IMG/VR virus record: IMGVR_UViG_3300035698_029469
Length of the DNA stretch: 20,000 nucleotides
Origin: an uncultured virus (IMG/VR IMGVR_UViG_3300035698_029469)
Lineage: Duplodnaviria; Heunggongvirae; Uroviricota; Caudoviricetes
Strand: one strand, 5' to 3'
The position numbers were made by a program, and so were the translations under genes. Of this stretch, positions 1 to 17,655 are shown piece after piece. Position 1 is the first letter of the stretch, and every line of letters begins with the position of its first letter. Under the pieces are notes generated by a model, which was not told where the DNA came from, did no database searches, and saw only the letters and a list, made by a program, of their open reading frames with translations.

Positions 1-63
1 GTTGAAATCGAGGATGAGTTGGGTGTAACACCCGAACTTCACCTTTTCGTTAAGGAGAGATGA
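1..63 (+). CDS. 3' end of a gene cut by the window edge (VEIEDELGVTPELHLFVKER*)
   Basis: Open frame from position 1 to TGA at 61-63; the stop lies inside the leader of the next gene, as elsewhere in this array. Confidence 0.5.
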   Translation, partial: VEIEDELGVTPELHLFVKER

Positions 64-66
64 AAA

Positions 67-426
67 ATGGATATAAACACAAATTATTTTGATGAAATAA
101 AAAAGGGTGGTATAAAAATGGAAAGTGTAAATGAGATAAGGAATAGATGGAAGCGAGAACTATCAGACATTACAATAGAAAATGTCGATAGTTTGATTGC
201 CGATGTAGATCGAGTCAAAGAACTATCTATAGATTTCCCGACTGAAAATATCGATATTCAGAAGCAAAGTGTCGATATAAAATTTTTATTGTTACATTTT
301 AAAATGTTATTGGAGTATTCCGATAACGCGAATCTTATTGCAACTTTAAATGAACAACACCTTTTCAATTTGAATTTTTATATGTCTGCCGCTGCAATAT
401 TGGAAATGCGGAGTTTTGATGATTAA
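67..426 (+). CDS. hypothetical protein, 119 aa (alternative start at 118)
   Basis: ORF preceded by the AAGGAGAGATGAAAAATG leader. Confidence 0.75.
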   Translation: MDINTNYFDEIKKGGIKMESVNEIRNRWKRELSDITIENVDSLIADVDRVKELSIDFPTENIDIQKQSVDIKFLLLHFKMLLEYSDNANLIATLNEQHLFNLNFYMSAAAILEMRSFDD

Positions 427-452
427 AGGGGATAAAAATGGAGGAATGAAAA

Positions 453-677
453 ATGGAAATGGAAAAAATGAGTTTTATATTAGGTGTGGGATTTACAATA
501 ATGATGGGAATAATAATTATGGCTTATCTTTATTATAGATGGCAGGAGAATTATTTTGTAAACCCGCCCGAAAATTTAACGAAAAAACAAGTTACAAAGG
601 GAACTGCTATTCTTTCCGTGCAATCTATTATAATTATTATTTGTATGTTTTTAATTCCGATAATAATTATCAGATAA
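453..677 (+). CDS. small membrane protein with 2 predicted TM segments
   Basis: GGAGG leader; hydrophobic stretches at both termini. Confidence 0.75.
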   Translation: MEMEKMSFILGVGFTIMMGIIIMAYLYYRWQENYFVNPPENLTKKQVTKGTAILSVQSIIIIICMFLIPIIIIR

Positions 678-691
678 TTTAAAAAGGAGGA

Positions 692-1177
692 ATGATTAAA
701 ATGCCGGAATTAGAAATGACTTGGATGGTAATATTATTATTTTTTATAATCGGAATAATAATTTTTATCGGATGTTTTTTATTTATTTTATTGAATAAAT
801 ATGTATTAGAGGAAGCAAATAAGGAATATCAAAAGGGCAATAAAGATGATTGTTATGGATTTATTATAATGCTTTTAATATTAGATTATTTAATTTTCGG
901 AGCTATATTTTGTATTGCGGATCATTATATTCGGGGTTATTATTCTTATACATGCGCAATTATAAGTTATACTATGATAGCTATTGTAGTTAATATTATG
1001 TTACTTGCTATGATTGCTTGTGGAATAGAAGATGTATCTGAAAAAGAAGAATCGTTAGGTATTATATTGGGTGTAGCAATATTAATTATTGTAAATTTAT
1101 ATTTAATATTAATATTGATAAATGCTTTGGATTATCTTGGAATGGATTTTCTGCCGATTGTAGTAATAAAGTGGTAA
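692..1177 (+). CDS. membrane protein with about 4 TM segments (start 692 or 701)
   Basis: AAGGAGG SD; four Ile/Leu-rich hydrophobic segments. Confidence 0.75.
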   Translation: MIKMPELEMTWMVILLFFIIGIIIFIGCFLFILLNKYVLEEANKEYQKGNKDDCYGFIIMLLILDYLIFGAIFCIADHYIRGYYSYTCAIISYTMIAIVVNIMLLAMIACGIEDVSEKEESLGIILGVAILIIVNLYLILILINALDYLGMDFLPIVVIKW

Positions 1178-1194
1178 ATAAGGAGGAATAAAAA

Positions 1195-1776
1195 ATGGAA
1201 GAATGTAATTGCGAAAAGTGTATGAGTTTGTGTTCAGGAATGCCGGGATGGTTTAAAGGCGGGCAGGCTATAAAAGCGGCCGAACATTTAAACTTATCAC
1301 TACTTGAATTTTTTGATCAATATCTTATGTTTGATAGTTGGGGTCAAAGCTTTATCCGGCATTGTTCGGCAGATATTGATGTCTTAATGCCACGAAATAA
1401 TAAATATAACTTATCAGATATAATGAAAAGACCGATGATGGAAAGGCGGCACGCTCGATGTAGATTATTGACGGATCACGGTTGTAAATTGCCATTAGAA
1501 CTTCGACCGTTTGAATGTGCCAACATATTTGGATGTAATTATCCGAATAAAAAAAATAGTCGAGAAATTCATATAGAAACTGCAAAATCTTGGGTTAAAA
1601 ATTATTTGGAAATTGAAGGAATATTGTCGATGAAGGGTTATACCCGCGAGAGACTTTATCGGGAAACAAACCAATATGAATATGATTTTGGTTTTAGCTC
1701 GAGAAATCAACATGATAATTGGGAAAATGATTGGGAATGGAAATATGTTCAAAATTTAAGTGATGAGGGATTCTAA
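1195..1776 (+). CDS. YkgJ/CxxCxxCC-like cysteine-cluster (Zn or Fe-S) protein
   Basis: N-terminal CxCxxCxxxC plus C-terminal CRLLTDHGCKL...RPFEC, matching the YkgJ pattern C-x-x-L-x(3-4)-G-C...R-P-x-x-C. Confidence 0.75.
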   Translation: MEECNCEKCMSLCSGMPGWFKGGQAIKAAEHLNLSLLEFFDQYLMFDSWGQSFIRHCSADIDVLMPRNNKYNLSDIMKRPMMERRHARCRLLTDHGCKLPLELRPFECANIFGCNYPNKKNSREIHIETAKSWVKNYLEIEGILSMKGYTRERLYRETNQYEYDFGFSSRNQHDNWENDWEWKYVQNLSDEGF

Positions 1777-1802
1777 AAAGGCCGAATAAGGAGAAATGAA
1801 AA

Positions 1803-1952
1803 ATGATTGTAAATGATTTGCTTAGATTGAGAGATGAGATAAAAGATTATATTTCAAATAGTGATAAAATAAAATATAATAGTTTTATAAGAATTGCGAA
1901 GGATGATTTGGATTTTGTAGAAAGTGAAATAGAAAGGGAAACGACAGATTAA
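1803..1952 (+). CDS. hypothetical 49-aa protein (MIVNDLLRLRDEIKDY...ERETTD), not in the ORF track
   Basis: Full leader AAGGAGAAATGAAAAATG at 1788-1805; fills the gap between flanking genes. Confidence 0.65.
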   Translation: MIVNDLLRLRDEIKDYISNSDKIKYNSFIRIAKDDLDFVESEIERETTD

Positions 1953-1981
1953 CCCGACCGAGTCAGAAGGAGGAATGAAAA

Positions 1982-2419
1982 ATAATTGTAAATGGAAAAC
2001 TCTTCAAACTCACAGATCGTTGGATTGGTTTACGAGTACGACGTAATGAGCAAAGAGGCCGATTTATGGGGTTTGATGAAAGCGGACGGCACATTGTTCA
2101 ATTTCAAACTTTTAAAACTGGAATTATAAACACAAATAATCTTAGCCTGGGATCACAAATAATGGATTTTCTTAATAATATGTATCGCGTCAGACGTGCT
2201 ATTACAACTGGTAATATATCAATATTAAATATATCGGGCGGTGATATTTTAAATATTGATAGAAATGTAATTAGATTAGAAGATATCGATGTTGCAGTAT
2301 TGAACGAATATTTTACTGAAGTAATGGAATTATATCGATTAATATTTGAAGTGTCAATTAAAATGACGGCGCCTTCAAATAAAATTGATTTGGGCCACCG
2401 GAAAAGTTGGTTCGATTAA
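1982..2419 (+). CDS. HRKSWF-family paralog 1; the homologous start position is ATA (first in-frame ATG at 2066)
   Basis: In-frame upstream extension IIVNGKLFKLTDRWIGL matches MIANGKQIELTDRWIGL of 3964..4431; C-terminus DLGHRKSWF. Confidence 0.7.
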   Translation: MIVNGKLFKLTDRWIGLRVRRNEQRGRFMGFDESGRHIVQFQTFKTGIINTNNLSLGSQIMDFLNNMYRVRRAITTGNISILNISGGDILNIDRNVIRLEDIDVAVLNEYFTEVMELYRLIFEVSIKMTAPSNKIDLGHRKSWFD

Positions 2420-2432
2420 GGAGGAATGAAAA

Positions 2433-2909
2433 ATGAGCGATTTGGATTTAATTATCACTACTACCAATTGCACAAGAGCCGAAGCCATTAACGCTTATAA
2501 AGTTTCGGGTCACAACTTTGTAAACACAATTGTTTATTTAGTTGATCATACTGAGTTGAAAAATCGAATAAAGGCGGAATTAACGGAAATATTAGATGAT
2601 TTTTATAAATTAATTTATCATAAAGATTGTAATGTTATGTCTATAAGTGATGATAGGATGTATAATAATGATAGTGGTCTTTATTTTTATAGAAATCATT
2701 CTGGATTTAGATTTTTTCAATCGCAATTATTTAAAGTGCATTTAGTAAATACTCGTTATGATGTAAATATGATAGACACACAAGAACTTGTAAGAATATC
2801 AACCGAAAAAGTAATTAATCTGTTAGTAGTGTCACGAATGACATTACCTAAGAATTGCGATAAAAAATTAATTATTAGATATATAAAACAATTTAGTCGG
2901 TTTATTTAG
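2433..2909 (+). CDS. protein with N-terminal NAC-alpha-like UBA domain; RFI-tail family paralog 1
   Basis: DLDLIITTTNCTRAEAINAYKVSGHNFVNTIVYL resembles the NAC-alpha/HYPK UBA pattern; C-terminal 40 aa similar to 3119..3469. Confidence 0.65.
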   Translation: MSDLDLIITTTNCTRAEAINAYKVSGHNFVNTIVYLVDHTELKNRIKAELTEILDDFYKLIYHKDCNVMSISDDRMYNNDSGLYFYRNHSGFRFFQSQLFKVHLVNTRYDVNMIDTQELVRISTEKVINLLVVSRMTLPKNCDKKLIIRYIKQFSRFI

Positions 2910-2925
2910 AAAGGAGAGTGAAAAA

Positions 2926-3114
2926 ATGAGTAAACGAATATATTTAATTATTGGTATTTTATATTTTTTATTATATGTAATATTAATAATACAATATAGT
3001 TTAAAGATAATAAATATTGATATGTTCACGATTGAAGTATCTTATCTAATGTTTATCGGCGTGGTTTTATATTGGTTGTTAAATCACCACCATCAAAGGT
3101 TAAAAGGAGAATGA
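2926..3114 (+). CDS. small 2-TM membrane protein
   Basis: Leader motif; two hydrophobic segments. Confidence 0.65.
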   Translation: MSKRIYLIIGILYFLLYVILIIQYSLKIINIDMFTIEVSYLMFIGVVLYWLLNHHHQRLKGE

Positions 3115-3118
3115 AAAA

Positions 3119-3469
3119 ATGAGTGAAACGATAACACGAATCAATCAGGCGACACTTGAAAGTTTTCCATTCCATTTAATTGACGATAGTCAATTACGTA
3201 GAGTGGATAAAGATTGGGGTAAAGATTGGGGAATCTTCATTCAGTTTCACAATGCTCCAAATCGAACCTTTATTTGGTTATTATCTGATAGTATTACTTT
3301 ATATTATAGGAAGATAATTTGTTGGTCACCTTTCGATTTTAAAGGTTGGGATTATAAAATAACCGAATCCGAATTGAATACCTTTTTGGCAATTGCCCGA
3401 TTATACGGCAAAAAGAAAACAGTAGCCGAAATTAAAGATGCTCTTAAAAAATTAGGTCGGTTTATTTAA
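3119..3469 (+). CDS. hypothetical protein; RFI-tail family paralog 2
   Basis: Leader motif; ends KITESELNTFLAIARL...LKKLGRFI. Confidence 0.75.
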   Translation: MSETITRINQATLESFPFHLIDDSQLRRVDKDWGKDWGIFIQFHNAPNRTFIWLLSDSITLYYRKIICWSPFDFKGWDYKITESELNTFLAIARLYGKKKTVAEIKDALKKLGRFI

Positions 3470-3483
3470 AGGGGGAATGAAAA

Positions 3484-3714
3484 ATGAAATCATTAGATGA
3501 ATTAGAAAATTTAGGATTTACATTATTTTCAATAGGTTTAATAGCTGCTATTGTGGGAACTATATTTACAATAATATATATGTGTTTAGGTGTTTTTAAT
3601 GAAATTGAAACTCAAAGCATGATACTTTCAATTATAGTTAGTTTTTTTATATGTTGGATAGGATTTACTATATTAAATTACGCCGATAAAATTCATGATG
3701 AAATAAATGAATAA
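3484..3714 (+). CDS. small 2-TM membrane protein
   Basis: Leader motif; two hydrophobic segments. Confidence 0.7.
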   Translation: MKSLDELENLGFTLFSIGLIAAIVGTIFTIIYMCLGVFNEIETQSMILSIIVSFFICWIGFTILNYADKIHDEINE

Positions 3715-3919
3715 GGTCGGTTTATTTAAACTAAAGCGACAAAATGGAAATGATAAGATGGAAAATAGAAATTATGTTTTTGTAAATATATCTCCTCCGG
3801 TTGATTATTTAATGCGCTACATATTTAGAAGTGTGGAGCGACCATATACATATAAGACAATAACTAAAATTTATGAAAATGGTTATCATAGTAAAGATGA
3901 AGAAATTATTCATTATTAA
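3707..3919 (+). CDS. hypothetical protein (true start possibly ATG 3758)
   Basis: ORF fills the gap; the 5' part carries the GTCGGTTTATTTA repeat and may be non-coding. Confidence 0.55.
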   Translation: MNKVGLFKLKRQNGNDKMENRNYVFVNISPPVDYLMRYIFRSVERPYTYKTITKIYENGYHSKDEEIIHY

Positions 3920-3963
3920 AACGACAAGGAGAAATGAAAAATGGAAAATAAAGAGATGATAAA

Positions 3964-4431
3964 ATGATAGCAAACGGAAAACAAATCGAACTTACAGATC
4001 GTTGGATCGGGTTACCTGTCCAAACTAAATTTATGTTTGTCGATAATGATGCTATTGAACAAGGGTTATTTAGTGGGCAATTTATATATTGTGATCATGA
4101 TAGATGCGTTATTGATTTTGGAGTTTATAAAAATAGACTTAGGAATTCTGATCAGATATTTTACGGTGTAAACATGCAAAGATTTGTCAAAGCTATGTAT
4201 TGGATTCGACGAAATTTCGAACAAAACGGGGCGGTTAATCCAAATTCTTTTGAATCAATCATACCAATTGTTGATGATCTCGAACCGATAGAGGTCGAAT
4301 TCCTCAATGAGTATTATGATGATTATATGATTATTTATAGAAAAATTTTTGTAGTTCCGTCCAAAATGATGGTTAATGCCGAAAAATACGACTTGGGTCA
4401 CCGGAAAAGTTGGTTTAAAGATGAGGTATGA
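3964..4431 (+). CDS. HRKSWF-family paralog 2
   Basis: N-terminal LTDRWIGL; C-terminal DLGHRKSWF. Confidence 0.8.
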   Translation: MIANGKQIELTDRWIGLPVQTKFMFVDNDAIEQGLFSGQFIYCDHDRCVIDFGVYKNRLRNSDQIFYGVNMQRFVKAMYWIRRNFEQNGAVNPNSFESIIPIVDDLEPIEVEFLNEYYDDYMIIYRKIFVVPSKMMVNAEKYDLGHRKSWFKDEV

Positions 4432-4435
4432 TAAA

Positions 4436-4819
4436 ATGATGTTAGGTAATAGTGATTATTTTTTAGATGATCGATTTTTGGGAATGCGTTTAAATGTTTC
4501 CGAAAATGTAACTTTTGGGCACGAAATGTTCAAAAACAAACCGACTTTTTATCAAACTGAAAATGAAAATTATATTAAAGTTATGATTTTAATGAAGGGA
4601 TCAAATCATAATAAAAGTCCTTTAATGTCAACTTTAGATTATATGGGACCCTTTTCAGTTAAGCGTAATTCTGTCTTTGCTTCATTAGAATTATTATTAG
4701 CGAGTGTAAATCCGAATTCTTATAATTTGGAACGATTAACAACACAAGAGAAATTATTTTATGATGAGTATTTATTTGATCACCGGAAAAGTTGGTTTGA
4801 AGATGAGGAATTAATTTAA
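4436..4819 (+). CDS. HRKSWF-family paralog 3 (start reassigned from 4376 to ATG 4436)
   Basis: GAGGT SD before 4436; MMLGNSDYFLDDRFLGM aligns with LTDRWIGL; shares VNPNS with paralog 2; ends DHRKSWF. Confidence 0.75.
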   Translation: MMLGNSDYFLDDRFLGMRLNVSENVTFGHEMFKNKPTFYQTENENYIKVMILMKGSNHNKSPLMSTLDYMGPFSVKRNSVFASLELLLASVNPNSYNLERLTTQEKLFYDEYLFDHRKSWFEDEELI

Positions 4820-4842
4820 ATTACAAGGAGAGATGAAAAATA

Positions 4843-5055
4843 ATGGGAATATTAAAAAAACTTATGCCGTTTCGGGTTCCATATAGTAATGGCCCGTGTT
4901 GGTATAAAGGAAAATGGAACGGTTATGACAAATTAGAATTATTGAATGGACATAAAGTATATAGACATTGGCGAAGTTTATCTATAAATTTATTAGATAT
5001 AATTTTAATTCCAATTTATATAATAATAAAGAGAAAAAGGAGAGTAATAAAATGA
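4843..5055 (+). CDS. small basic protein with a C-terminal hydrophobic segment
   Basis: Leader motif at 4825; LLDIILIPIYIII followed by KRKRR. Confidence 0.65.
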   Translation: MGILKKLMPFRVPYSNGPCWYKGKWNGYDKLELLNGHKVYRHWRSLSINLLDIILIPIYIIIKRKRRVIK

Positions 5056-5782: not shown

Positions 5783-5855
5783 TGCCCATAGTCGGTCTCG
5801 AACCGACGATCAACAGCTTAGGAAGCTGATGCCTTATCCACTAGACTATACGGGC
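5783..5855 (-). tRNA. trnR: tRNA-Arg(CCT)
   Basis: GCCCGTA-TA-GTCT-AGTGGATA-AGGC-A-TCAGC-TTCCTAA-GCTGT-TGATC-GTCGG-TTCGAGA-CCGAC-TATGGGC-A; complete cloverleaf, A20 Arg identity base, no encoded CCA. Confidence 0.92.
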
Positions 5856-5861
5856 TTAAAG

Positions 5862-5935
5862 TGCTCTTAGAGGGACTTGAACCCTCGCCGACCCGGTTAG
5901 AAGCCGGGCATTCTATCCAACTGAATTATAAGAGC
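5862..5935 (-). tRNA. trnR: tRNA-Arg(TCT)
   Basis: GCTCTTA-TA-ATTC-AGTTGGATA-GAAT-G-CCCGG-CTTCTAA-CCGGG-TCGGC-GAGGG-TTCAAGT-CCCTC-TAAGAGC-A; all stems fully paired. Confidence 0.95.
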
Positions 5936-5945
5936 TTGATTTGGA

Positions 5946-6018
5946 AGCCCACGGTCGGACTTGAACCGACAATTACGGATTCCGAAGACCCGAGCCTTAT
6001 CCTTTTGGCCACGTGGGC
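5946..6018 (-). tRNA. trnR: tRNA-Arg(TCG)
   Basis: GCCCACG-TG-GCCA-AAAGGATA-AGGC-T-CGGGT-CTTCGGA-ATCCG-TAATT-GTCGG-TTCAAGT-CCGAC-CGTGGGC-T, followed by TCCA. Confidence 0.9.
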
Positions 6019-6024
6019 TTATGA

Positions 6025-6110
6025 TGGTGGGCGGGAGCGGATTCGAACCGCTGTCTCCTCAGTAGTTTCCTAGGACTGACTTGAGGCGTCTGCCTCTAAC
6101 CTACCCGCTC
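6025..6110 (-). ncRNA. tRNA-like RNA A (86 nt) with a 20-nt anticodon loop; possibly an intron-containing tRNA of undetermined identity
   Basis: Acceptor GAGCGGG/CCCGCCC plus ACCA; T arm AGCGG-TTCGAAT-CCGCT; stem CCTCA/TGAGG encloses AGTCAGTCCTAGGAAACTAC. Confidence 0.75.
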
Positions 6111-6122
6111 ATAGACCTGGAT

Positions 6123-6250
6123 TGGTGGTAACTGCCGGATTTAAACCGACGTCATCGGGCGGCTTACACGTTCGAGCGCAATTAACGCTCCTCCCGACCC
6201 ATTGCGGGATGTGCCCTGTCCCTATGTAATCTCTGCTATACTAGGTTACC
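6123..6250 (-). ncRNA. tRNA-like RNA B (128 nt) with a multi-hairpin domain in place of the anticodon arm
   Basis: Acceptor GGTAACC/AGTTACC plus ACCA; T arm GTCGG-TTTAAAT-CCGGC; internal stems GGGC/GCCC, ACAT/GTGT, TCCCG/CGGGA and GAGCG/CGCTC. Confidence 0.7.
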
Positions 6251-6415
6251 ATTGTATTTTTTTAACAGTGTATTGATTCTTAAACAGCAGGACTCGATTC
6301 TATCATCCATATATTTCGTTTCGGCACGAGAACACTTTATGCCGTATATTATAACTAAGATAGGCCCCACTATAGCTATTATAATGCACAAAACATCGAT
6401 GTATAATGGTATCAT
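6236..6415 (-). CDS. 59-aa single-TM micro-protein inside the tRNA cluster, not in the ORF track
   Basis: AAAGGAGA SD then ATG; MIPLYIDVLCIIIAIVGPILVIIYGIKCSRAETKYMDDRIESCCLRINTLLKKYNGNLV*. Confidence 0.7.
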   Translation of the reverse strand: MIPLYIDVLCIIIAIVGPILVIIYGIKCSRAETKYMDDRIESCCLRINTLLKKYNGNLV

Positions 6416-6452
6416 TGTGTTTTCTCCTTTCTATTTTATGCTACGTCGAAAT

Positions 6453-6613
6453 TGGTGGCAACCGGTGGATTCGAACCACCGTTGATTGGATATCTCCTTA
6501 CTCTGTTTATTCGCGCGCGCCACATAAGCTGAGGGGATCATGAGTCCAACGTCTCAGAGGGCTTCTTACCCGGTTACCCGAGCGGTATGCCAACCTGGCT
6601 AGACTAGATTGCC
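6453..6613 (-). tRNA. tRNA(CAT), elongator Met or Ile2, with two introns (37/38 at 6492-6538; D-loop at about 6556-6591)
   Basis: Removing the 47-nt and 36-nt inserts gives GGCAATC-TA-GTCT-AGCCAGGTTG-AGAC-G-TTGGA-CTCATGA-TCCAA-TCAAC-GGTGG-TTCGAAT-CCACC-GGTTGCC-A-CCA (78 nt). Confidence 0.85.
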
Positions 6614-6620
6614 TTTAATT

Positions 6621-6697
6621 TGGTGTCAGCGAGTGGAGTTTAACCACTGCAGCCCGGGCAGACTGTACGCCTTGCTTTTGCACTCAGCCACACTGAC
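6621..6697 (-). ncRNA. tRNA-like RNA C (77 nt) with an enlarged D loop, a shifted anticodon arm and essentially no variable loop
   Basis: Acceptor GTCAGTG/CGCTGAC plus ACCA; T arm AGTGG-TTAAACT-CCACT; hairpin CAGTC-TGCCCG-GGCTG. Confidence 0.7.
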
Positions 6698-6706
6698 AAC
6701 AGTTAA

Positions 6707-6790
6707 CGTCTGTTCCCGCCTCACGGCAAGACGAGACGGATTACCCTTTTTTAATCTCCAACGGTAATCTGGAGAAGCCGCTTTCGGGGC
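6707..6790 (-). ncRNA. structured RNA: GAAA hairpin, H-type pseudoknot and GUGA-capped hairpin
   Basis: TCTCCA/TGGAGA stem whose loop GATTACC is complementary to downstream GGTAATC across TTAAAAAAG; CGTCT/AGACG and CTTGCC-GTGA-GGCGGG. GNRA loops and G-U pairs fit only the minus strand. Confidence 0.65.
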
Positions 6791-6811
6791 GCGCACCATA
6801 CCCTGTTTTCC

Positions 6812-6837
6812 CTTTAAAACGTCTATTTTTAAAGCTT
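6812..6837 (-). promoter_or_regulatory. candidate TATA-box promoter of the RNA operon
   Basis: AAGCTTTAAAAA (6837-6826) and TTTTAAAG (6819-6812) lie about 20-40 nt upstream of the structured RNA. Confidence 0.45.
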
Positions 6838-6893
6838 AGAGTGGTAATGCCTTTAAGTAGATCCTTCTATCTCTTATCTGTGCGGCCGGGTAT

Positions 6894-8729
6894 TTAATAA
6901 TCCCAAGTAGTTGCAACCGCAAAGCCCGAAAAATCATCATAATCATCATTTGTGAAATTTATAACTTTGGGTTCTTGTTGTGCTCTACCGCCGGGTGAGT
7001 TGCCCTGTCTATAAGCTATAGCGGCAACCGGTTCATGTCCCGGGCTATCGTCCCGCATTTGTCTTAATGCCCAAGCTCCCATAGCCAGGGTAATAACCCG
7101 ATCATCACGGCCGTTTTTGGGATATTTAATATTGCCGCTTTCCGTGAATTCTTGTCGGAATTCGCGCAGCTCGTTTTCGAGGGAATAGAGTTCATGATCT
7201 ATAGTTCCTTTAGTCTTTCGATGTTCGGGATTATAATAGGGAATTCGGATTTCGTTATTCTCGAAGAGGTGCTTGAGATTAGAAATAACCAGCGGTTTAT
7301 TTTGAGCTGTAAAGTTTAGGCCAAGATCGCCTTTGGTGCGCCAAAAATGCGGAGGTTCATATCCAAACATTTGATCGCAGGCTTTTTTAAGGCCTTTCAC
7401 AAATATTCGGCCGACATTTTTACCGTCAAATACTACGGCCGTCGGACGGAAAGCTTCAATTAATCTTAAAGCTTGGGGTAACAATACTTCTTCGTAGTCA
7501 GCATGTAGATAACTTTCCTGCCAAACAAGCGAAGTGCATTCTCTTACGATCATTGTCCCATCTTTATCGCTGTTTACGATTGTCGGGCGTTTTGTTATAA
7601 ATGAAAATACCGTTCGATCGTGGGCTTGACCAAGGTCCCCGGCAAATACAAGAGGATATTTTCCTTTTGGTTCGGGGTCTAAAAATGGATAGCCGGCCGA
7701 TTTAGTCTCGGCTTCTTTTGTAAAATGCGAGACCGAATCCAATAATTGATCTGCAATAAAAACTCCGCCTTTTGCCGGCTCTTGAATTAAATCTTTACCG
7801 TAGAGGCCGGCAATTGCTCTAACAGAATCGGTTTCGATAAATGGATTAACAATGGGGACCCAACCGTTTACATCGCGGGCACGGAGAATATATTCGTTCT
7901 TAAATACGCTATCGGCATCGGAAACAAATTCTCCTTGAAGTTCTTCTTTAATCGAACGCGGACTGATTCTGTGATCTTCCATTTTTTGAAGAAATAATTC
8001 TGTATTCATCCACGGTACTGCCCATTTACATTGATTTTCGATTAAATTACCGTGGTTATCGAAGAAGAGATCATCTTTAATATTATATTTTTTATAGTAA
8101 TTTTCGTTGGTTTCGCTTATCCATTGCTCATAAAACCAGCCGCTCATTCCGAACGGTGTAGAACCTGCAATAACACGGGAAAAATCAAAATTAGGTCTTA
8201 TTGTTGGTAAAACGGGACCAACAATGAATTCCGTGGGTAATTGTGCAACTTCATCTATAAAACCAATTTCAAAACTCCGGCCACGGCAAGCGTCGCTTAC
8301 AGGAAAAGCCCAAATGTCAGAACGATTTTTAAGTTTAAAATGATCTTTGGCAATATTTTTTGGAACTAAAGTATGAAAATCGCTGTTCCTGATAAATTGT
8401 TCAATTATTCCGACTGATCTTGTTGCTTCATTATAACCCACCGAAAAATAGCCGATTAAAATACCTGGCCGTGTGATCATAAGAGCCGCTGCTATCACGT
8501 GCATAAGTGTAGATTTAGCATAACCTCTGGGAGCTTTTAAAAGTAATGTTCTTTTGCCTTCATAGACACCATCTTCAGGAGAACCGTATTGAAAGAGCCG
8601 ACAAGCTTCTTTTTGCCATTCGAGAAGTCTAAATGGCCGAAGTCCTTTTTCTTCTTTAAAGAAAGTTTCAATGAAGGTTACGAGATCCCGCATTAGATGA
8701 AGGTCTGCCATGCTAACGTTTATTCTCAT
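6894..8729 (-). CDS. terL: terminase large subunit
   Basis: Adenine-binding WQ, Walker A APRGYAKST, Walker B GFIDEVA, coupling motif GSTP, RNase H-like AGDLG..DRT and DDRVITLAM. Confidence 0.95.
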   Translation of the reverse strand: MRINVSMADLHLMRDLVTFIETFFKEEKGLRPFRLLEWQKEACRLFQYGSPEDGVYEGKRTLLLKAPRGYAKSTLMHVIAAALMITRPGILIGYFSVGYNEATRSVGIIEQFIRNSDFHTLVPKNIAKDHFKLKNRSDIWAFPVSDACRGRSFEIGFIDEVAQLPTEFIVGPVLPTIRPNFDFSRVIAGSTPFGMSGWFYEQWISETNENYYKKYNIKDDLFFDNHGNLIENQCKWAVPWMNTELFLQKMEDHRISPRSIKEELQGEFVSDADSVFKNEYILRARDVNGWVPIVNPFIETDSVRAIAGLYGKDLIQEPAKGGVFIADQLLDSVSHFTKEAETKSAGYPFLDPEPKGKYPLVFAGDLGQAHDRTVFSFITKRPTIVNSDKDGTMIVRECTSLVWQESYLHADYEEVLLPQALRLIEAFRPTAVVFDGKNVGRIFVKGLKKACDQMFGYEPPHFWRTKGDLGLNFTAQNKPLVISNLKHLFENNEIRIPYYNPEHRKTKGTIDHELYSLENELREFRQEFTESGNIKYPKNGRDDRVITLAMGAWALRQMRDDSPGHEPVAAIAYRQGNSPGGRAQQEPKVINFTNDDYDDFSGFAVATTWDY

Positions 8730-8733
8730 TTAA

Positions 8734-9069
8734 TCAATCTTCCAGTTCTTCGCCGATAATAACACAGCCTGCACACCCGTGAGTATCCCAAATTTTCATG
8801 TTAAATTCTCGATTATTTCCGCCTTTAAATCTACAATGTTCTCCAGTGTAAGCACAACCTAAACAACGCTCAGTTTGTCCGTTTTCGCCGTTCCGTTCCT
8901 TCATTTGTTCACCGACATTGTAGTGTTCCTTTCCCCAATCTTCATCAACCGTATTGCACAGATGGCAATAGCCGGCAAACATCCGCTTGCCTTCGTCAAA
9001 ACAATCGCAATTTGGACACATACAATCACCACAAGCTTTACACCATTGTTTTCCGCATTCTATATCCAT
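8734..9069 (-). CDS. Cys-rich putative Zn-binding protein, paralog 2
   Basis: MDIECGKQWCKACGDCMCPNC...YCHLC...CLGC...C...CAGC. Confidence 0.8.
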   Translation of the reverse strand: MDIECGKQWCKACGDCMCPNCDCFDEGKRMFAGYCHLCNTVDEDWGKEHYNVGEQMKERNGENGQTERCLGCAYTGEHCRFKGGNNREFNMKIWDTHGCAGCVIIGEELED

Positions 9070-9072
9070 CAA

Positions 9073-9249
9073 TTATGACTCCCATCGATTCTTAGTTCCA
9101 TCTAAGTAACCAGGATATTCTAATTCCATTTCTTGGCAAAAGTCACAATAATGATGTGAATTTGATGATTTTACTCGAATCCAATTACATTCTTTACATA
9201 TACAATCACCACAACCCCAACAGAATAGTTTTCCGCATTCTATATCCAT
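9073..9249 (-). CDS. 58-aa Cys-rich putative Zn-binding protein, paralog 1, not in the ORF track
   Basis: AGGAG SD; MDIECGKLFCWGCGDCICKECNWIRVKSSNSHHYCDFCQEMELEYPGYLDGTKNRWES*; DNA repeat 9021-9069 vs 9201-9249. Confidence 0.8.
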   Translation of the reverse strand: MDIECGKLFCWGCGDCICKECNWIRVKSSNSHHYCDFCQEMELEYPGYLDGTKNRWES

Positions 9250-10472: not shown

Positions 10473-12188
10473 ATGGACGATATAACATTAAATAATACTT
10501 CTGAAATTACAGAGCAAGCTTCAAATGGTTCTATTGATCTCATGGAATTTTTATGTTGTTCCTACGTGAATCAAAACGAAGGAGCGGGAAATTTCGCTCC
10601 GTCGGGAAGTCCGCCGGCACTTTTCGCTGAGGACGTAAACTCTTATTTTGACGGAAATCTTACGGTGCCCAAGCTTGATGAATTGCGCTATTGGATGACG
10701 CCGGCAACCGCCACGAATAACTGGTTTCTATTTTCAAAGGAATCAACTTGCCGAAACATCGCAGAAACGATTATCTCTATGGTTAAGGGATCCGGGGCTA
10801 ATGTTACTGTTTACAACGATGATGGAATTGATGATGAACTAACTGAAGTAGCTACAAATTGGTATAGGAATATTGCCGGTGTTGGACAGTCTTTTAATAA
10901 TTATGTGCTTAAATGGTTTATTATGGATAATTTAATATTCGGGCAATCTCTTATGTATAAATTCCGACCCGATAAAACAAGCCCGCAGTATGATAAAGAT
11001 GATCTTTATCTCAGAAAGTTAGATCCGAGAGAAACTGTTCGACACGTTCACGACCGCCAAGGTTGGGAGAAATATATCCAATATCCACGAGTTCAGGCGG
11101 GATTTGGCATTTATATAAAACCCCGGCGTAGTAATAAAGCACAGCCGAAATATACCTGGCTTGATCCCCCAACAACTTACGGGGAGTTTATGAAGTGGGT
11201 CCCCGGGTTTTCGACTCTTTATGATGTTTATTCGCACGGGGCACGAGTTCGGGATAAACCGCTTATTATTGAAGGTAAAAAGGTTATCAGATCCAATTTT
11301 TGGGTATGGGCGCCTTTTAACTCTGTAATTGACTACGTGGTAACCAAACTACGTTGTATTTTTTATATTCAGAAAGTTGTGGAAAAACATGCATTCCCTT
11401 TACCACTTATAAAGGTCCCCAGAAATGCACGATGGGATAGCAATCCCGCTAAATATATAAAAAAGGTTAAAAATGCGGCCCGCATGGGAGCACAAATGAA
11501 AACCGGCGATGGATTAGCTGTTCAAGGCCCGCAACATAATGAAGAGGGAAAAGTCATAGATCCTGGCTGGGAAGTAGAAATACTTGACACGAAGTCAGCG
11601 ATCATAGATTTTGAAAAAATAATTACTATTTTGAACAACGGAATAGCACACGGGTTGATGATGAATCCTTCGGTAATAGACTCCGATTCTAGCCAGGGAA
11701 AAATGGCCACGGGCTATATGGGCTGGCAATCAATGGTTGTAGTTATTGAGAGTATCCGAAGTGCGATTCAGGATGTAATGATTCCGGTTACACAGGAATA
11801 CATTAAGTTTAAGACCGGAAGGACTGTAGAAGAAAAGAATGTTCAACTTAGATGGCAACGAATAAGCGAGAACGATTCGGCAATAATCGGAAGCCAAATT
11901 GTGCAATTTTTACAGGCGGGTATTATAGATATAGAAGAAGCCCGGGAACAGGCAAATATTATCGGTTGGAATTTAGAAGGAAAGTCTATTGAAGATATTA
12001 TGGACTTTTATAAAGAATATATGGAGATAATACAGCCGCCGGGTAAATCGGAAGGTTCTGTAGATTCGGATCCTGGTAATACCGGCGATAGAAGTGGCGG
12101 ATACCAAAATAATCCGCAGGACCGGGTTAAAAACGTTAATGTGACCAGAAAAGGCGGTGGCGGTGGAACTGGAAGGGAGGGTACTTAA
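10473..12188 (+). CDS. portal protein
   Basis: 571 aa; DNLIFGQSLMYK...LRKLDP, KHAFPLPLIKV, IAHGLMMNP and GIIDIEEARE are portal-like segments; disordered tail; upstream of head genes. Confidence 0.85.
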   Translation: MDDITLNNTSEITEQASNGSIDLMEFLCCSYVNQNEGAGNFAPSGSPPALFAEDVNSYFDGNLTVPKLDELRYWMTPATATNNWFLFSKESTCRNIAETIISMVKGSGANVTVYNDDGIDDELTEVATNWYRNIAGVGQSFNNYVLKWFIMDNLIFGQSLMYKFRPDKTSPQYDKDDLYLRKLDPRETVRHVHDRQGWEKYIQYPRVQAGFGIYIKPRRSNKAQPKYTWLDPPTTYGEFMKWVPGFSTLYDVYSHGARVRDKPLIIEGKKVIRSNFWVWAPFNSVIDYVVTKLRCIFYIQKVVEKHAFPLPLIKVPRNARWDSNPAKYIKKVKNAARMGAQMKTGDGLAVQGPQHNEEGKVIDPGWEVEILDTKSAIIDFEKIITILNNGIAHGLMMNPSVIDSDSSQGKMATGYMGWQSMVVVIESIRSAIQDVMIPVTQEYIKFKTGRTVEEKNVQLRWQRISENDSAIIGSQIVQFLQAGIIDIEEAREQANIIGWNLEGKSIEDIMDFYKEYMEIIQPPGKSEGSVDSDPGNTGDRSGGYQNNPQDRVKNVNVTRKGGGGGTGREGT

Positions 12189-16665: not shown

Positions 16666-17655
16666 ATGGCAACTTATGCACAGGATATACCTAATATTCT
16701 ACGAAGAAAATATATGCTCGGCCGATTTATTGAGCAAAAAAATCACCTTTTTGTCGGAGATTATATATTCGGCCAGCTTACTACGGAAGATCCAACGTTC
16801 CTTTATTTAGAGGAACGTCGAGGATATAGAATGACGCCTGAAACCGGTAGAAATACCGAAGGCGATGTTCTCAACGACATTTATGCTCAGCATGTTGGTC
16901 GAACTGTAAGCTATAAAGAGCGAATGCAAATTGACACACGAGTTAAGAAACCGTATGTGCTTATTGATCTTGCAGAACGACGAATGAAAAGTCTTACGAT
17001 TAATATGGCCCGACGAATGGAGTTTCTTAAGGTAAATGCACTGGCAAACGGTTATTTAAGTGCTGACGGAAACGAAAGCCTTTATTGGATCGATTTTGAT
17101 GATACAGCTGCGTTTGTCGGACAGAATTGGGTTGATGGAACCGGAAATGTTGATATTCGGGGAAATCTGGCATTTGCAAAAGCAAGAATGCTTGAAAACG
17201 CATTTGTCGCTCCGGATACGGTAATTTGTTCGCCAAAAGTTTGGGAATCTGTTGAAAGACAGTTAGTTTGGGAATACGGTAATTCCGGACCTTTTGGACA
17301 AAGTATGCTTCGGGACGGTCGATTACCAGACGGTGCAACCGAGCCTGATAGAAGTGCTTACCGTGGAAATTGGTATGACCTTGATTGGTTTGTTACAAAC
17401 GGGTATTATCAATCTGATAACGATAATATTTTCTCAAGTCTCACTAAAATGGTGGATAGACACGTTTATGTATTTAAAAGAGGAAATGATCTCGGCGGAC
17501 TCTACATGATGAAAGATACCGATATGATTAAAACGAGAGTTCCGGACCAAGGATTTACAAATCTGTATGAGGTTCAGCTTGAGTTTGAATGCACCCCGGT
17601 AATATTTCATCCGGAATACATATTTACATTTTTGAATGTAGAAACGGCTCCGTGA
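16666..17655 (+). CDS. major capsid protein (HK97 fold, lambda gpE-like)
   Basis: 329 aa; long helix RRMEFLKVNALANG, W....DI...L and PDTVICSPKVWESV; strong SD GGAGG; canonical gene position. Confidence 0.88.
   Translation: MATYAQDIPNILRRKYMLGRFIEQKNHLFVGDYIFGQLTTEDPTFLYLEERRGYRMTPETGRNTEGDVLNDIYAQHVGRTVSYKERMQIDTRVKKPYVLIDLAERRMKSLTINMARRMEFLKVNALANGYLSADGNESLYWIDFDDTAAFVGQNWVDGTGNVDIRGNLAFAKARMLENAFVAPDTVICSPKVWESVERQLVWEYGNSGPFGQSMLRDGRLPDGATEPDRSAYRGNWYDLDWFVTNGYYQSDNDNIFSSLTKMVDRHVYVFKRGNDLGGLYMMKDTDMIKTRVPDQGFTNLYEVQLEFECTPVIFHPEYIFTFLNVETAP

What the first reader, a model, noticed from the sequence alone, without database searches (positions are those of the whole stretch)
6123..6250. 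tRNA-like RNA B: anticodon arm replaced by a branched two-hairpin domain
Seen: 128 nt with an acceptor stem (6 of 7 pairs), ACCA, a TA linker, a D-like GTAT..TTAC arm and T loop TTTAAAT. GGGC/GCCC and ACAT/GTGT helices carry two hairpins, TCCCG-CAATGGGT-CGGGA and GAGCG-TTAATTG-CGCTC; the latter has the 5-bp/7-nt anticodon-arm shape. I could not derive a standard anticodon loop by simple intron removal. Inference: a tRNA-scaffolded RNA with a cargo domain, architecturally like a miniature tmRNA but with no tag ORF.
Basis: partly seen in the sequence, partly recalled or inferred. Interest (0 to 1): 0.7.

Follow-up and report, generated by a model that had tools for sequence, protein, structure and literature searches.

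The report
Phage tRNA-shaped RNA with built-in insert
In an unknown salt-lake phage, this 128-base gene is a complete tRNA body whose anticodon loop is replaced by a 60-base two-hairpin insert, so it cannot read codons and is most likely a stable tRNA-shaped RNA like the unexplained RNAs C and D of phage T4.

Summary
On the minus strand, 6250-6123 has a 6/7 acceptor stem, encoded ACCA, U8-A9, a weak D arm, a strong T arm and two strong hairpins. The ACAT/GTGT helix is not favoured.

It is not chance. It lies in a tight minus-strand array downstream of the terminase gene, holding three ordinary tRNA-Arg genes and four aberrant tRNA-shaped genes that all end in ACCA.

The tRNA core is canonical, with G19:C56 swapped to A19:U56. 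Stem 27-31/92-96 sits where an anticodon stem belongs but encloses 60 nt.

ARAGORN, with or without introns, and Rfam do not call it. No single deletion gives an ordinary tRNA. There is no strict bulge-helix-bulge motif, and no tmRNA features.

No homologue was found anywhere; only identical copies occur in salt-lake metagenomes, and no RNA data exist. Conservation and expression are therefore untested.

Best reading (0.55): a non-decoding, tRNA-scaffolded stable RNA made from the tRNA operon, closest in kind to T4 RNAC/RNAD. Its function is inferred only. Rivals are a decaying tRNA gene and an archaeal-type spliced tRNA. Other viral contigs carry unrelated, structurally conserved tRNA-shaped RNAs with odd middles, so the kind recurs.

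The parts
6123..6250 (-). RNA B, whole tRNA-shaped gene (128 nt, RNA position i = 6251 - coordinate)
6244..6250 (-). acceptor 5' strand GGTAACC (positions 1-7)
   Evidence: pairs with 6127-6133, 6 of 7; probability 0.58-0.82
6226..6241 (-). D arm GTAT-AGCAGAGA-TTAC (positions 10-25); the loop fits A14 G15 .. G18 A19 .. A21
   Evidence: 3 pairs plus U.U, probability about 0.5; numbering read from the sequence
6220..6224 (-). 5' strand of the anticodon-stem equivalent TAGGG (positions 27-31)
   Evidence: pairs with CCCGA at 6155-6159 (4 of 5; A28.G95 unpaired); probability 0.30-0.44, competing with GGG35-37
6160..6219 (-). 60-nt insert in place of the 7-nt anticodon loop (positions 32-91): irregular helix, then a three-way junction
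6192..6209 (-). hairpin 1, TCCCG-CAATGGGT-CGGGA (positions 42-59)
   Evidence: probability 0.76-0.89
6174..6190 (-). hairpin 2, GAGCG-TTAATTG-CGCTC (positions 61-77); loop ATTG complements loop-1 CAAT
   Evidence: probability 0.99-1.0; loop complementarity has chance probability 0.067
6155..6159 (-). 3' strand of the anticodon-stem equivalent CCCGA (positions 92-96)
   Evidence: same 5-mer as in the tRNA-Met of L032
6151..6154 (-). 4-nt variable region TGAC (positions 97-100); its last C fits C48 opposite G15
   Evidence: read from the sequence
6134..6150 (-). T arm GTCGG-TTTAAAT-CCGGC (positions 101-117); U at position 56
   Evidence: probability 0.98-0.99
6123..6133 (-). acceptor 3' strand AGTTACC, discriminator A, encoded CCA
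6236..6415 (-). 59-codon frame for a small hydrophobic protein with AAAGGAG 9 nt upstream; its last 15 nt overlap the 5' end of B
6025..6110 (-). E4, 86-nt tRNA-shaped gene with a 20-nt loop on the anticodon stem, ending ACCA
   Evidence: ARAGORN's odd 'Leu(caa) at position 28'; fold
6453..6613 (-). E2, 161-nt tRNA-shaped gene ending ACCA. TTGGA-CTCATGA and TCCAA are separated by 47 nt, with a further ~34-nt insert after the D arm
6621..6697 (-). E1, 77-nt tRNA-shaped gene ending ACCA, with T loop TTAAACT and a non-canonical anticodon loop
   Evidence: called only at lowered ARAGORN threshold
5783..6018 (-). three ordinary tRNA-Arg genes (TCG, TCT, CCT), none with encoded CCA
6894..8729 (-). 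terminase large subunit gene upstream of the RNA array
   Evidence: phrog_2 E 2.3e-29

Best explanation
B is a tRNA-derived gene of a tailed phage that makes a stable, tRNA-shaped RNA unable to decode.

Shown by the sequence:
- It sits 12 nt upstream of the next tRNA-shaped gene, in a head-to-tail array with three normal tRNA-Arg genes.
- It keeps every element of the tRNA upper body and core: acceptor stem, U8, A14, G15, G18, A21, a purine at 26, C48, G53:C61, T54, T55 and A58.
- The outermost elbow pair is changed on both sides, from G19:C56 to A19:U56.
- The stem at the anticodon-stem position encloses 60 nt: an irregular helix, then a three-way junction with two 5-bp hairpins.

Inferred:
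- It is transcribed with the array.
- RNase P cuts it at G1, and its 3' end is trimmed to the encoded CCA.
- It folds into an L shape whose long arm carries the insert.
- It persists because tRNA bodies are stable.

Because no 7-nt loop with U33 can be formed, it cannot act on the ribosome as an adaptor.

Most likely role (inference, perhaps 1 in 4 on its own): a decoy or scaffold that occupies host proteins recognising the tRNA body or CCA end. These could be processing enzymes, tRNA-directed defence toxins or initiator-specific factors. The insert would then supply specificity or block decoding.

Its ancestry looks Met/initiator-like, which is a lead only.
For: - Array context: 7 tRNA-type elements lie on one strand within 915 nt, and 4 of them end in ACCA.
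- Core and helices.
- Not an ordinary tRNA: no ARAGORN call with or without the intron option; no Rfam match at gathering score or at E<=10.
- Single-deletion scan: of 4284 variants, 87 were called, and all 87 were 'tRNA-Ile(aat)'. These use hairpin 2 and leave a long variable region, 23 nt in the one variant I drew.
- No strict BHB motif. None of the 9 relaxed candidates is among those 87 deletions.
- Neighbours E1, E2 and E4 show the same pattern: intact acceptor, T arm and ACCA with an abnormal anticodon region. Four such genes in a compact phage genome argue for use rather than decay.
- Precedent: T4 rnaD (119 nt) and rnaC (139 nt) directly follow tRNA-Arg. rnaC keeps a canonical T arm and paired termini. 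Their roles are still unknown (PMC3014915, passage).
- Recurrence elsewhere: an unrelated family of 100-111-nt tRNA-shaped RNAs in 8 IMG/VR contigs shows compensatory changes in 4 of 7 acceptor pairs and 2 of 5 T-stem pairs. A 188-nt insert-bearing element lies beside 4 tRNAs in L182.
- Met/initiator lead: B shares CCCGA, GTCGG and CCGGC with the tRNA-Met of L032, and its T loop differs by one C-to-T change.
Against: - No homologue of B was found, so there is no covariation for the insert. Searches: phage records; IMG/VR (0 of 71 loop-pattern hits have both hairpins); species genomes. JGI metagenomes were scanned with the terminase only and gave only identical copies.
- No RNA run holds the region, so expression and processing are untested.
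- Folding energy is not better than shuffles.
- The base of the insert is ambiguous between two registers.
- The acceptor has a C.A mismatch and the D stem a U.U mismatch, as a decaying gene might.
- A 59-codon frame overlaps the first 15 nt, so RNase P cleavage would truncate that message.
- The proposed function rests on analogy only.
Confidence: 0.55

Rival explanations
1. B is a decaying tRNA gene. A former tRNA (perhaps tRNA-Met) had its anticodon region disrupted by insertion or internal duplication, and it no longer has a function.
For: - C7.A mismatch in the acceptor, U.U in the D stem and A28.G95 in the anticodon-stem equivalent.
- Repeated GGG and CCC tracts, and a stretch at 33-46 that reads like a shortened Met-type anticodon arm (GGG-CACAT-CCC). 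Both suggest duplication (sequence).
- Fold energy is no better than shuffles.
- No conserved relatives.
- Degenerate tRNA-Met 3' halves with the same C56-to-T change exist in bacterial genomes.
Against: - Four aberrant tRNA-shaped genes, about 450 nt in all, each keep the acceptor, T arm and ACCA in a compact phage genome.
- The 19:56 change is on both sides and keeps a Watson-Crick pair.
- The two insert hairpins are perfect 5-bp helices.
- The sequence is identical in contigs from four separately listed salt-lake runs and two JGI contigs. This shows only that the element is not an assembly error.
Confidence: 0.2
2. B is an intron-containing tRNA of an archaeal virus. The host splicing endonuclease and ligase remove the insert and yield a working tRNA.
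For: - The habitat is salt lakes, where archaea abound.
- Neighbour E2 resolves into a Met(CAT) cloverleaf if two segments are removed, one at the canonical 37/38 position. 4357 of the 12,934 called double-deletion variants, out of 58,080 tried, were tRNA-Met(cat).
- That site has a relaxed hBH arrangement.
Against: - No strict BHB motif in B.
- The 9 relaxed candidates do not give a tRNA.
- No 7-nt loop with U33 can be assembled next to either strand of the stem (sequence).
- The only ARAGORN-acceptable product has anticodon AAT, U at position 37 and, in the variant drawn, a 23-nt unpaired variable region.
- ARAGORN is permissive in the double-deletion test: 22% of variants were called.
- Gene starts carry strong, stereotyped AAGGAGG sites.
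- The one early protein with relatives matches mainly Bacillus and Paenibacillus phages: 8 of 11 records, against 1 archaeal-virus record.
- No splicing enzyme is encoded in the window.
Confidence: 0.1
3. B acts in cis on its transcript as a tRNA-like punctuation or 3' stabiliser for the small upstream frame. RNase P cleavage at B would control how much of the 59-residue membrane protein is made.
For: - The frame 6415-6236, with a good ribosome-binding site, ends 15 nt inside B.
- A promoter-like site lies at 6461-6433.
Against: - The promoter-like count equals that of shuffles: 3 found against 2.5 expected.
- Any frame running into a tRNA 5' end is stopped by the conserved U8-A9-G10 or Y13-A14-R15 triplets, so the overlap may be incidental.
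- This reading does not explain the 60-nt insert, nor E1, E2 and E4.
Confidence: 0.1
4. B works as DNA. It would be a recombination or attachment site that imitates a tRNA gene.
For: - tRNA 3'-half imitations are common at integration sites. The six genome hits to B's T-arm pattern are such partial copies.
Against: - B has both halves of the tRNA with a pairing 5' acceptor strand.
- It sits in a co-oriented tRNA operon.
- No integrase was found among 22 proteins of the window.
- No direct repeat of B is present in the window.
Confidence: 0.05

Closest known systems
Phage T4 RNAC (species 1, 139 nt) and RNAD (species 2, 119 nt), small stable RNAs of the T4 tRNA gene cluster
   Same: - Encoded head to tail with tRNAs, directly beside a tRNA-Arg gene.
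- Similar size.
- RNAC keeps a canonical T arm and paired termini while the rest is replaced by long hairpins.
- Non-decoding, with function unknown (PMC3014915, passage read).
   Different: - No sequence similarity.
- B keeps a D arm and the whole tRNA core and confines its extra domain to the anticodon loop.
- B encodes its CCA; the T4 RNAs as annotated do not end in CCA.
- That the T4 RNAs are stable RNAs is stated in the record's annotation note. Nothing is known about B as an RNA.
tmRNA (SsrA)
   Same: - An acceptor and T-arm module ending in ACCA.
- The anticodon arm is replaced by a long helix leading to further structure.
   Different: - No tmRNA call by ARAGORN and none over B by Rfam.
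- The 3:70 pair is U:A, not G:U.
- A D stem is present.
- No pseudoknots.
- No tag frame: the only frames are a 5-codon one and one that runs into the T loop (my reading).
- 128 nt; tmRNAs are about 300-400 nt (recalled).
Archaeal intron-containing pre-tRNAs with bulge-helix-bulge splicing
   Same: A tRNA body with extra sequence at the anticodon loop. Neighbour E2 has an insert at 37/38.
   Different: No BHB motif and no canonical spliced product for B. The host is more likely bacterial.
Bacterial YrlA-type Y RNAs (tRNA-mimicking domain)
   Same: A non-coding RNA that imitates the tRNA elbow and acceptor/T region (PMC4201824, search listing and abstract start only).
   Different: - As I recall, the tRNA-like part of YrlA is internal and the termini form the Ro-binding stem; B has the reverse arrangement.
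- Rfam YrlA does not match B. The only weak YrlA hit, 17.8 bits against a threshold of 69, lies over the normal tRNAs.
- No Ro-like protein among the 22 proteins scanned.
Unnamed 100-111-nt tRNA-shaped RNAs of IMG/VR contigs found here (L231-L241 family) and the 188-nt element of L182
   Same: - Acceptor 7/7, U8-A9, T arm and encoded ACCA.
- A non-canonical middle with hairpins.
- Where checked, they lie by tRNA genes and mostly escape ARAGORN and Rfam.
   Different: - Not homologous to B.
- A different, minimal D arm.
- Their structure is supported by compensatory changes; B's is not.

Membership tests
canonical tRNA (Rfam RF00005) | acceptor stem, T arm, D arm and core tertiary nucleotides | tested here: met
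   6/7 acceptor, 5-bp T stem, 3-bp D stem, U8 A14 G15 G18 A21 C48 G53:C61 T54 T55 A58; 19:56 is A:U
canonical tRNA (Rfam RF00005) | 5-bp anticodon stem closing a 7-nt loop with U33 and a purine at 37 | tested here: not met
   The stem 27-31/92-96 closes 60 nt. Hairpin 2's loop is TTAATTG (U at 37) and hairpin 1's loop has 8 nt.
canonical tRNA (Rfam RF00005) | score at or above the family threshold (29 bits), or an ARAGORN call | tested here: not met
   No match over 6123-6250 even at E<=10; no ARAGORN call
tmRNA | recognised by tmRNA models | tested here: not met
   ARAGORN -m found nothing; no Rfam tmRNA match over B
tmRNA | G3:U70 alanine identity pair (feature recalled) | tested here: not met
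   The 3:70 pair is U3:A122
tmRNA | internal tag frame with a stop codon, flanked by pseudoknots | tested here: not met
   Only a 5-codon frame (TTG at 70 to TAA at 85-87) and a 15-codon frame ending in the T loop. No pseudoknot is evident. This is my reading of the sequence.
archaeal intron-containing pre-tRNA | bulge-helix-bulge motif (3-nt bulges around a 4-bp helix) at the exon-intron borders | tested here: not met
   0 strict motifs. The 9 relaxed candidates have at most 1 pair in the second outer helix or 1 mismatch in the central helix.
archaeal intron-containing pre-tRNA | removal of the intron gives a canonical cloverleaf | tested here: not met
   Of 4284 single deletions, 87 were called, all Ile(aat); the variant drawn has a 23-nt variable region
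archaeal intron-containing pre-tRNA | host with a splicing endonuclease (archaeon) | tested here: inconclusive
   Strong AAGGAGG sites and mostly Firmicutes-phage relatives of one protein favour a bacterium, but the host is unknown.
T4 RNAC/RNAD-type stable RNAs of phage tRNA clusters | encoded within a phage tRNA gene cluster, co-oriented and closely spaced | tested here: met
   Spacers of 5-12 nt to neighbours; tRNA-Arg genes lie downstream
T4 RNAC/RNAD-type stable RNAs of phage tRNA clusters | tRNA-like termini and T arm but no anticodon | tested here: met
   T4; B
T4 RNAC/RNAD-type stable RNAs of phage tRNA clusters | accumulates as a stable processed RNA | not testable with these tools
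   No RNA run holds the region
T4 RNAC/RNAD-type stable RNAs of phage tRNA clusters | sequence homology to rnaC or rnaD | tested here: not met
   No blastn match of the array or of B to any phage record apart from a 23-nt chance hit
YrlA Y RNA | match to Rfam RF02553 and a neighbouring Ro (Rsr) gene | tested here: not met
   No match over B; no such protein among 22 scanned

The most novel reading that the evidence does not exclude
B and its three neighbours belong to a widespread, unnamed class of phage 'tRNA-scaffold' RNAs. On this reading phages exploit the host's tRNA processing and the stability of the L shape to display variable RNA modules. Here the module is a three-way junction with two mutually complementary loops, carried on an initiator-like stem with three G:C pairs. 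Such RNAs would act as decoys for host proteins that recognise the tRNA body or CCA end, for example tRNA-directed defence toxins or initiation factors. That would finally give a function to the T4 RNAC/RNAD type of RNA.
Probability: 0.2. Interest if true: 0.8.

Novelty: new variant of a known kind. Interest (0 to 1): 0.5.

Why it matters
Phage tRNA clusters have been known since the 1970s to hold extra stable RNAs. T4 RNAC and RNAD are the examples, and their role has never been found.

This window shows a cleaner case: a full tRNA core with a discrete insert exactly at the anticodon loop, next to three more aberrant tRNA-shaped genes.

If these RNAs are made and processed, standard tRNA finders and Rfam miss a recurrent kind of phage non-coding RNA. 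Its likely targets, proteins that handle tRNA, are at the centre of current work on phage-host conflict.

The present case alone cannot prove this, because it has no relatives and no expression data.

Tried and rejected
**Homologues of B**
- blastn of the 1101-nt array against phage records: none.
- blastn of B alone: only a 23-nt chance hit inside an ATPase gene.
- blastn of E2: a 55-nt match to phiKZ-like phages that proved to be a coding ribosome-binding region, not a tRNA-like element.
- B's T-arm 17-mer in IMG/VR: 2 chance hits in coding or unrelated DNA.
- B's two loop motifs at fixed spacing in IMG/VR: 71 hits, 0 with both hairpins.

**Relatives of the phage**
- Word-index search with the terminase: none at 1e-10.
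- Full HMMER search: best hit 43% identity. The top hits are singletons from unnamed contigs.
- Related loci in IMG/VR and JGI: only 22-34% identical terminases, plus two identical fragments of this same phage.
- 16 of those distant loci were scanned for tRNAs and hold none.
- tblastn of the capsid, the 571-aa protein (10473-12188) and the 3'-open 594-aa frame at 18216 against phage records: no match.
- The Atlas look-up confirmed a terminase but gave no host.

**Other attempts**
- No whole genome is held for the window.
- Sequencing runs: no RNA holder is listed. The four DNA runs laid gave 11 identical contig pieces, with no variant and no joint.
- Antisense targets: duplex energies of the insert against 25 translation starts gave one outlier at 2026-2085 (-42.7 kcal/mol; 0 of 200 shuffles). 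In a scan of 1983 windows it ranked fourth, within a continuous tail. The top window owes its score to an 11-nt match expected about once by chance. I draw nothing from this.
- The loop-loop complementarity CAAT/ATTG has chance probability 0.067 and is suggestive only.
- Promoter and terminator scans were at shuffle level.
- Paralogy of B and E2: 19 of 29 identical at the 5' end by my count on A3, but much of that is generic tRNA sequence.

**Literature**
Two full-text searches for insert-bearing tRNA-like phage RNAs found no description of this kind. One search on viral tRNA introns found only a remark on RNA ligases of HGTV-1.

Full report
**Where it lies**

The window is part of a tailed-phage genome.
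- The frame 8729-6894 (minus) is a large terminase subunit (phrog_2, E 2.3e-29; Atlas).
- 16666-17655 is a major capsid protein (Pfam Phage_cap_E and phrog_29).
- No whole genome is held.
- The same DNA occurs, letter for letter, in contigs of four salt-lake metagenome runs and in two JGI contigs. One of these, L020, spans 6090-7620 and so covers all of B.
- The phage is very distant from anything known. Its terminase has 43% identity to its best relative among 1.8 billion representatives. The capsid protein, the 571-aa protein and the 3'-open frame at 18216 have no tblastn match in 50,697 phage records.

**The array**

Downstream of the terminase, all on the minus strand and separated by 5-12 nt except where a small frame intervenes, lie:
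- E1 (6697-6621, 77 nt)
- E2 (6613-6453, 161 nt)
- a 59-codon frame (6415-6236)
- B (6250-6123, 128 nt)
- E4 (6110-6025, 86 nt)
- tRNA-Arg(TCG), tRNA-Arg(TCT) and tRNA-Arg(CCT)

Rfam recognises only the three Arg tRNAs, at 58-68 bits. The three Arg genes lack an encoded CCA, whereas E1, E2, B and E4 all end in ACCA.

A scan of both strands of the window for a T arm with a pairing acceptor gave 27 hits. The seven with G+C-rich stems are exactly these seven elements. Only one of the other twenty is followed by ACCA, and it lies inside a small coding frame. The tRNA-like nature of B is therefore not a chance reading, even though its folding energy is unremarkable (z -1.11).

**Anatomy of B**

Positions are counted from the 5' end (window coordinate = 6251 - i).

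| Positions | Element |
|---|---|
| 1-7 and 118-124 | acceptor, 6 of 7 pairs |
| 8-9 | U, A |
| 10-25 | D arm GTAT-AGCAGAGA-TTAC |
| 26 | A |
| 27-31 and 92-96 | stem TAGGG/CCCGA, 4 of 5 pairs |
| 97-100 | variable region TGAC |
| 101-117 | T arm GTCGG-TTTAAAT-CCGGC |
| 125 | A |
| 126-128 | CCA |

- The D loop fits the standard numbering A14 G15 C16 A17 G18 A19 G20 A21.
- The T loop reads T54 T55 T56 A57 A58 A59 T60.
- All nucleotides that build the tRNA core are therefore present. The usual G19:C56 elbow pair is replaced by A19:U56, a change on both sides that keeps a Watson-Crick pair. This is my reading of the sequence; the standard numbering is established knowledge.
- It is a single case, not a statistical test. 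In E1 (T loop TTAAACT) I could not find an equally clean match.

**The insert**

Where a 7-nt loop belongs there are 60 nt (positions 32-91).
- Hairpin 1 (42-59) and hairpin 2 (61-77) are strongly predicted, at 0.76-0.89 and 0.99-1.0.
- The helix that carries them is ambiguous. GGG29-31 and GGG35-37 compete equally for CCC92-94 (0.44 each).
- The loops contain CAAT and ATTG, which are complementary. Random loops of this size do that in 6.7% of trials.

**Can it become an ordinary tRNA?**

- ARAGORN finds nothing at B, with or without its intron option or at a lowered threshold.
- I removed every possible single segment, giving 4284 variants. 87 were called, and all were 'tRNA-Ile(aat)'. These use hairpin 2 as the anticodon arm, with U at position 37; the variant I drew leaves a 23-nt unpaired variable region.
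- A strict bulge-helix-bulge search finds none in B.
- A relaxed search lists nine weak candidates, none of which corresponds to a deletion that gave a tRNA.
- Next to either strand of the 27-31/92-96 stem there is no U at the position of U33.
- B therefore cannot decode by any standard route.
- tmRNA is also excluded as a family: no ARAGORN or Rfam call, U3:A70 rather than G:U, a D stem present, no pseudoknots and no tag frame.

**The neighbours**

- E2 is informative. TTGGA-CTCATGA and its partner TCCAA, which sits directly before a 5-nt variable region and the T arm, are separated by 47 nt at the canonical 37/38 position. A further ~34 nt follow the D arm.
- In a double-deletion scan, tRNA-Met(cat) was the commonest call: 4357 of the 12,934 called variants, out of 58,080 tried. 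ARAGORN called 22% of all variants, so this test is weak.
- E2's intron-like site has only a relaxed hBH arrangement, and its lowest-energy fold is not a cloverleaf.
- E4 has a normal body with a 20-nt loop on its anticodon stem.
- All four aberrant genes share one pattern: an intact upper body and CCA end, with an abnormal lower body.

**Ancestry**

- B's T-arm pattern found six places in 185,579 species genomes. Each is a partial, degenerate copy of the 3' half of a tRNA-Met gene, not called as a tRNA.
- The intact tRNA-Met next to one of them (L032 255-331) has anticodon stem TCGGG/CCCGA and T arm GTCGG-TTCAAAT-CCGGC.
- B has the same CCCGA, GTCGG and CCGGC, and its T loop differs by one C-to-T change.
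- B also contains TCGGG at 54-58, and a stretch GGG-CACAT-CCC at 35-45 that resembles a shortened CAT anticodon arm.
- Three G:C pairs at 29-31:39-41 are the mark of initiator tRNAs (established knowledge). B lacks the bacterial 1:72 mismatch, however.
- I take a Met-type origin, possibly with internal duplication, as a lead and not a result.

**Host**

- Gene starts carry strong AAGGAGG sites. One 19-nt start module occurs nine times.
- The only early protein with relatives in phage records matches Bacillus and Paenibacillus phages in 8 of 11 records, an archaeal-virus record in 1, and two other bacterial phages.
- This favours a bacterial host, by my estimate about three to one, and so counts against protein-catalysed splicing. 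It does not settle the question.

**What is known that resembles it**

- In T4, rnaD (119 nt) and rnaC (139 nt) follow tRNA-Arg directly.
- rnaC keeps a canonical T arm and paired ends around long hairpins.
- A review states that their roles are unknown (PMC3014915, passage read).

I also met other cases while searching with E2's T arm. Of 121 IMG/VR matches, 92 were ordinary tRNAs and 29 were not called.
- Among the uncalled ones are a 188-nt insert-bearing element beside four tRNAs (L182).
- There is also a family of 100-111-nt tRNA-shaped RNAs, found in 8 of 11 hits of a follow-up pattern.
- In the 7 members of that family that I aligned, 4 of 7 acceptor pairs and 2 of 5 T-stem pairs show compensatory double changes.
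- These are not homologues of B. They show that non-canonical tRNA-shaped RNAs recur in viral contigs and that some are under structural selection.

Earlier notes of this scan describe similar arrays in other phages. I treat them as leads only.

**Verdict**

- B is real as a tRNA-derived gene (about 0.95).
- It is most likely a non-decoding, tRNA-scaffolded RNA made and processed with the tRNA operon (0.55).
- Its function is unknown. The decoy or scaffold idea is inference.
- A decaying gene (0.2), an archaeal-type spliced tRNA (0.1), a cis-acting processing element (0.1) and a DNA-level site (0.05) remain open.
- The weakest point is that B is an orphan without expression data.

Noticed in passing
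window 6453-6613 (-), element E2: A 161-nt tRNA-shaped gene ending in ACCA. The halves of a Met-type anticodon arm (TTGGA-CTCATGA ... TCCAA) are split by 47 nt at position 37/38, and a second ~34-nt insert with a GTAA-capped hairpin follows the D arm. Its lowest-energy fold pairs the D-arm region with the first insert rather than forming a cloverleaf.
   Followed up: partly
window 6025-6110 (-) and 6621-6697 (-), elements E4 and E1: Two more tRNA-shaped genes ending in ACCA. E4 has a 20-nt loop containing the palindrome CCTAGG on its anticodon stem. E1 has T loop TTAAACT and a loop without U33. ARAGORN calls E4 an odd 'Leu(caa)' and calls E1 only at a lowered threshold.
   Followed up: partly
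window 6236-6415 (-): A 59-codon frame for a small hydrophobic protein with a good ribosome-binding site sits between E2 and B. Its last 15 nt are the 5' end of B, so RNase P cleavage at B would remove its stop codon.
   Followed up: partly
window 52-4843 (+): Nine copies of a stereotyped translation-start module (AAGGAGGAATGAAAAATG and variants) precede the small early genes. Several early genes also share longer 5' repeats: 1979-2046 with 3961-4028, and 2390-2426 with 4393-4429 and 4775-4811.
   Followed up: no
window 6698-6895 (-): The 200 nt between the terminase stop and E1 fold into several hairpins. These include a GTGA-capped hairpin and a hairpin loop GATTACC that is complementary to GGTAATC a few bases downstream, a possible pseudoknot. 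z = -1.97.
   Followed up: no
L231, L232, L233, L234, L236, L238, L240, L241 (IMG/VR): A family of 100-111-nt tRNA-shaped RNAs: acceptor 7/7, TA, a minimal D arm, a variable hairpin, a second hairpin, a T arm and ACCA. The 7 members aligned show compensatory changes in the acceptor and T stems. None of the copies seen was called by ARAGORN. Of the three copies scanned with Rfam, only one (L164) reaches the tRNA threshold, at 33 bits.
   Followed up: partly
L182 901-1088 (-) (IMG/VR): A 188-nt element with a 7/7 acceptor, TA, a T arm and ACCA and an insert of about 110 nt, lying beside four ordinary tRNA genes. ARAGORN and Rfam do not call it.
   Followed up: partly
L032 about 370-428 (and the equivalent places in L033 and L037), Rheinheimera genomes: About 70 nt downstream of the tRNA-Met(cat) gene and upstream of the rimP leader lies a degenerate second copy of that tRNA's 3' half, ending in ACCA, with a C-to-T change in the T loop.
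   Followed up: no
window 9002-9069 and 9182-9249: Two 68-nt direct repeats (79% identity), 180 nt apart, in and near the small frame 8734-9072 at the divergent junction of the two gene blocks.
   Followed up: no
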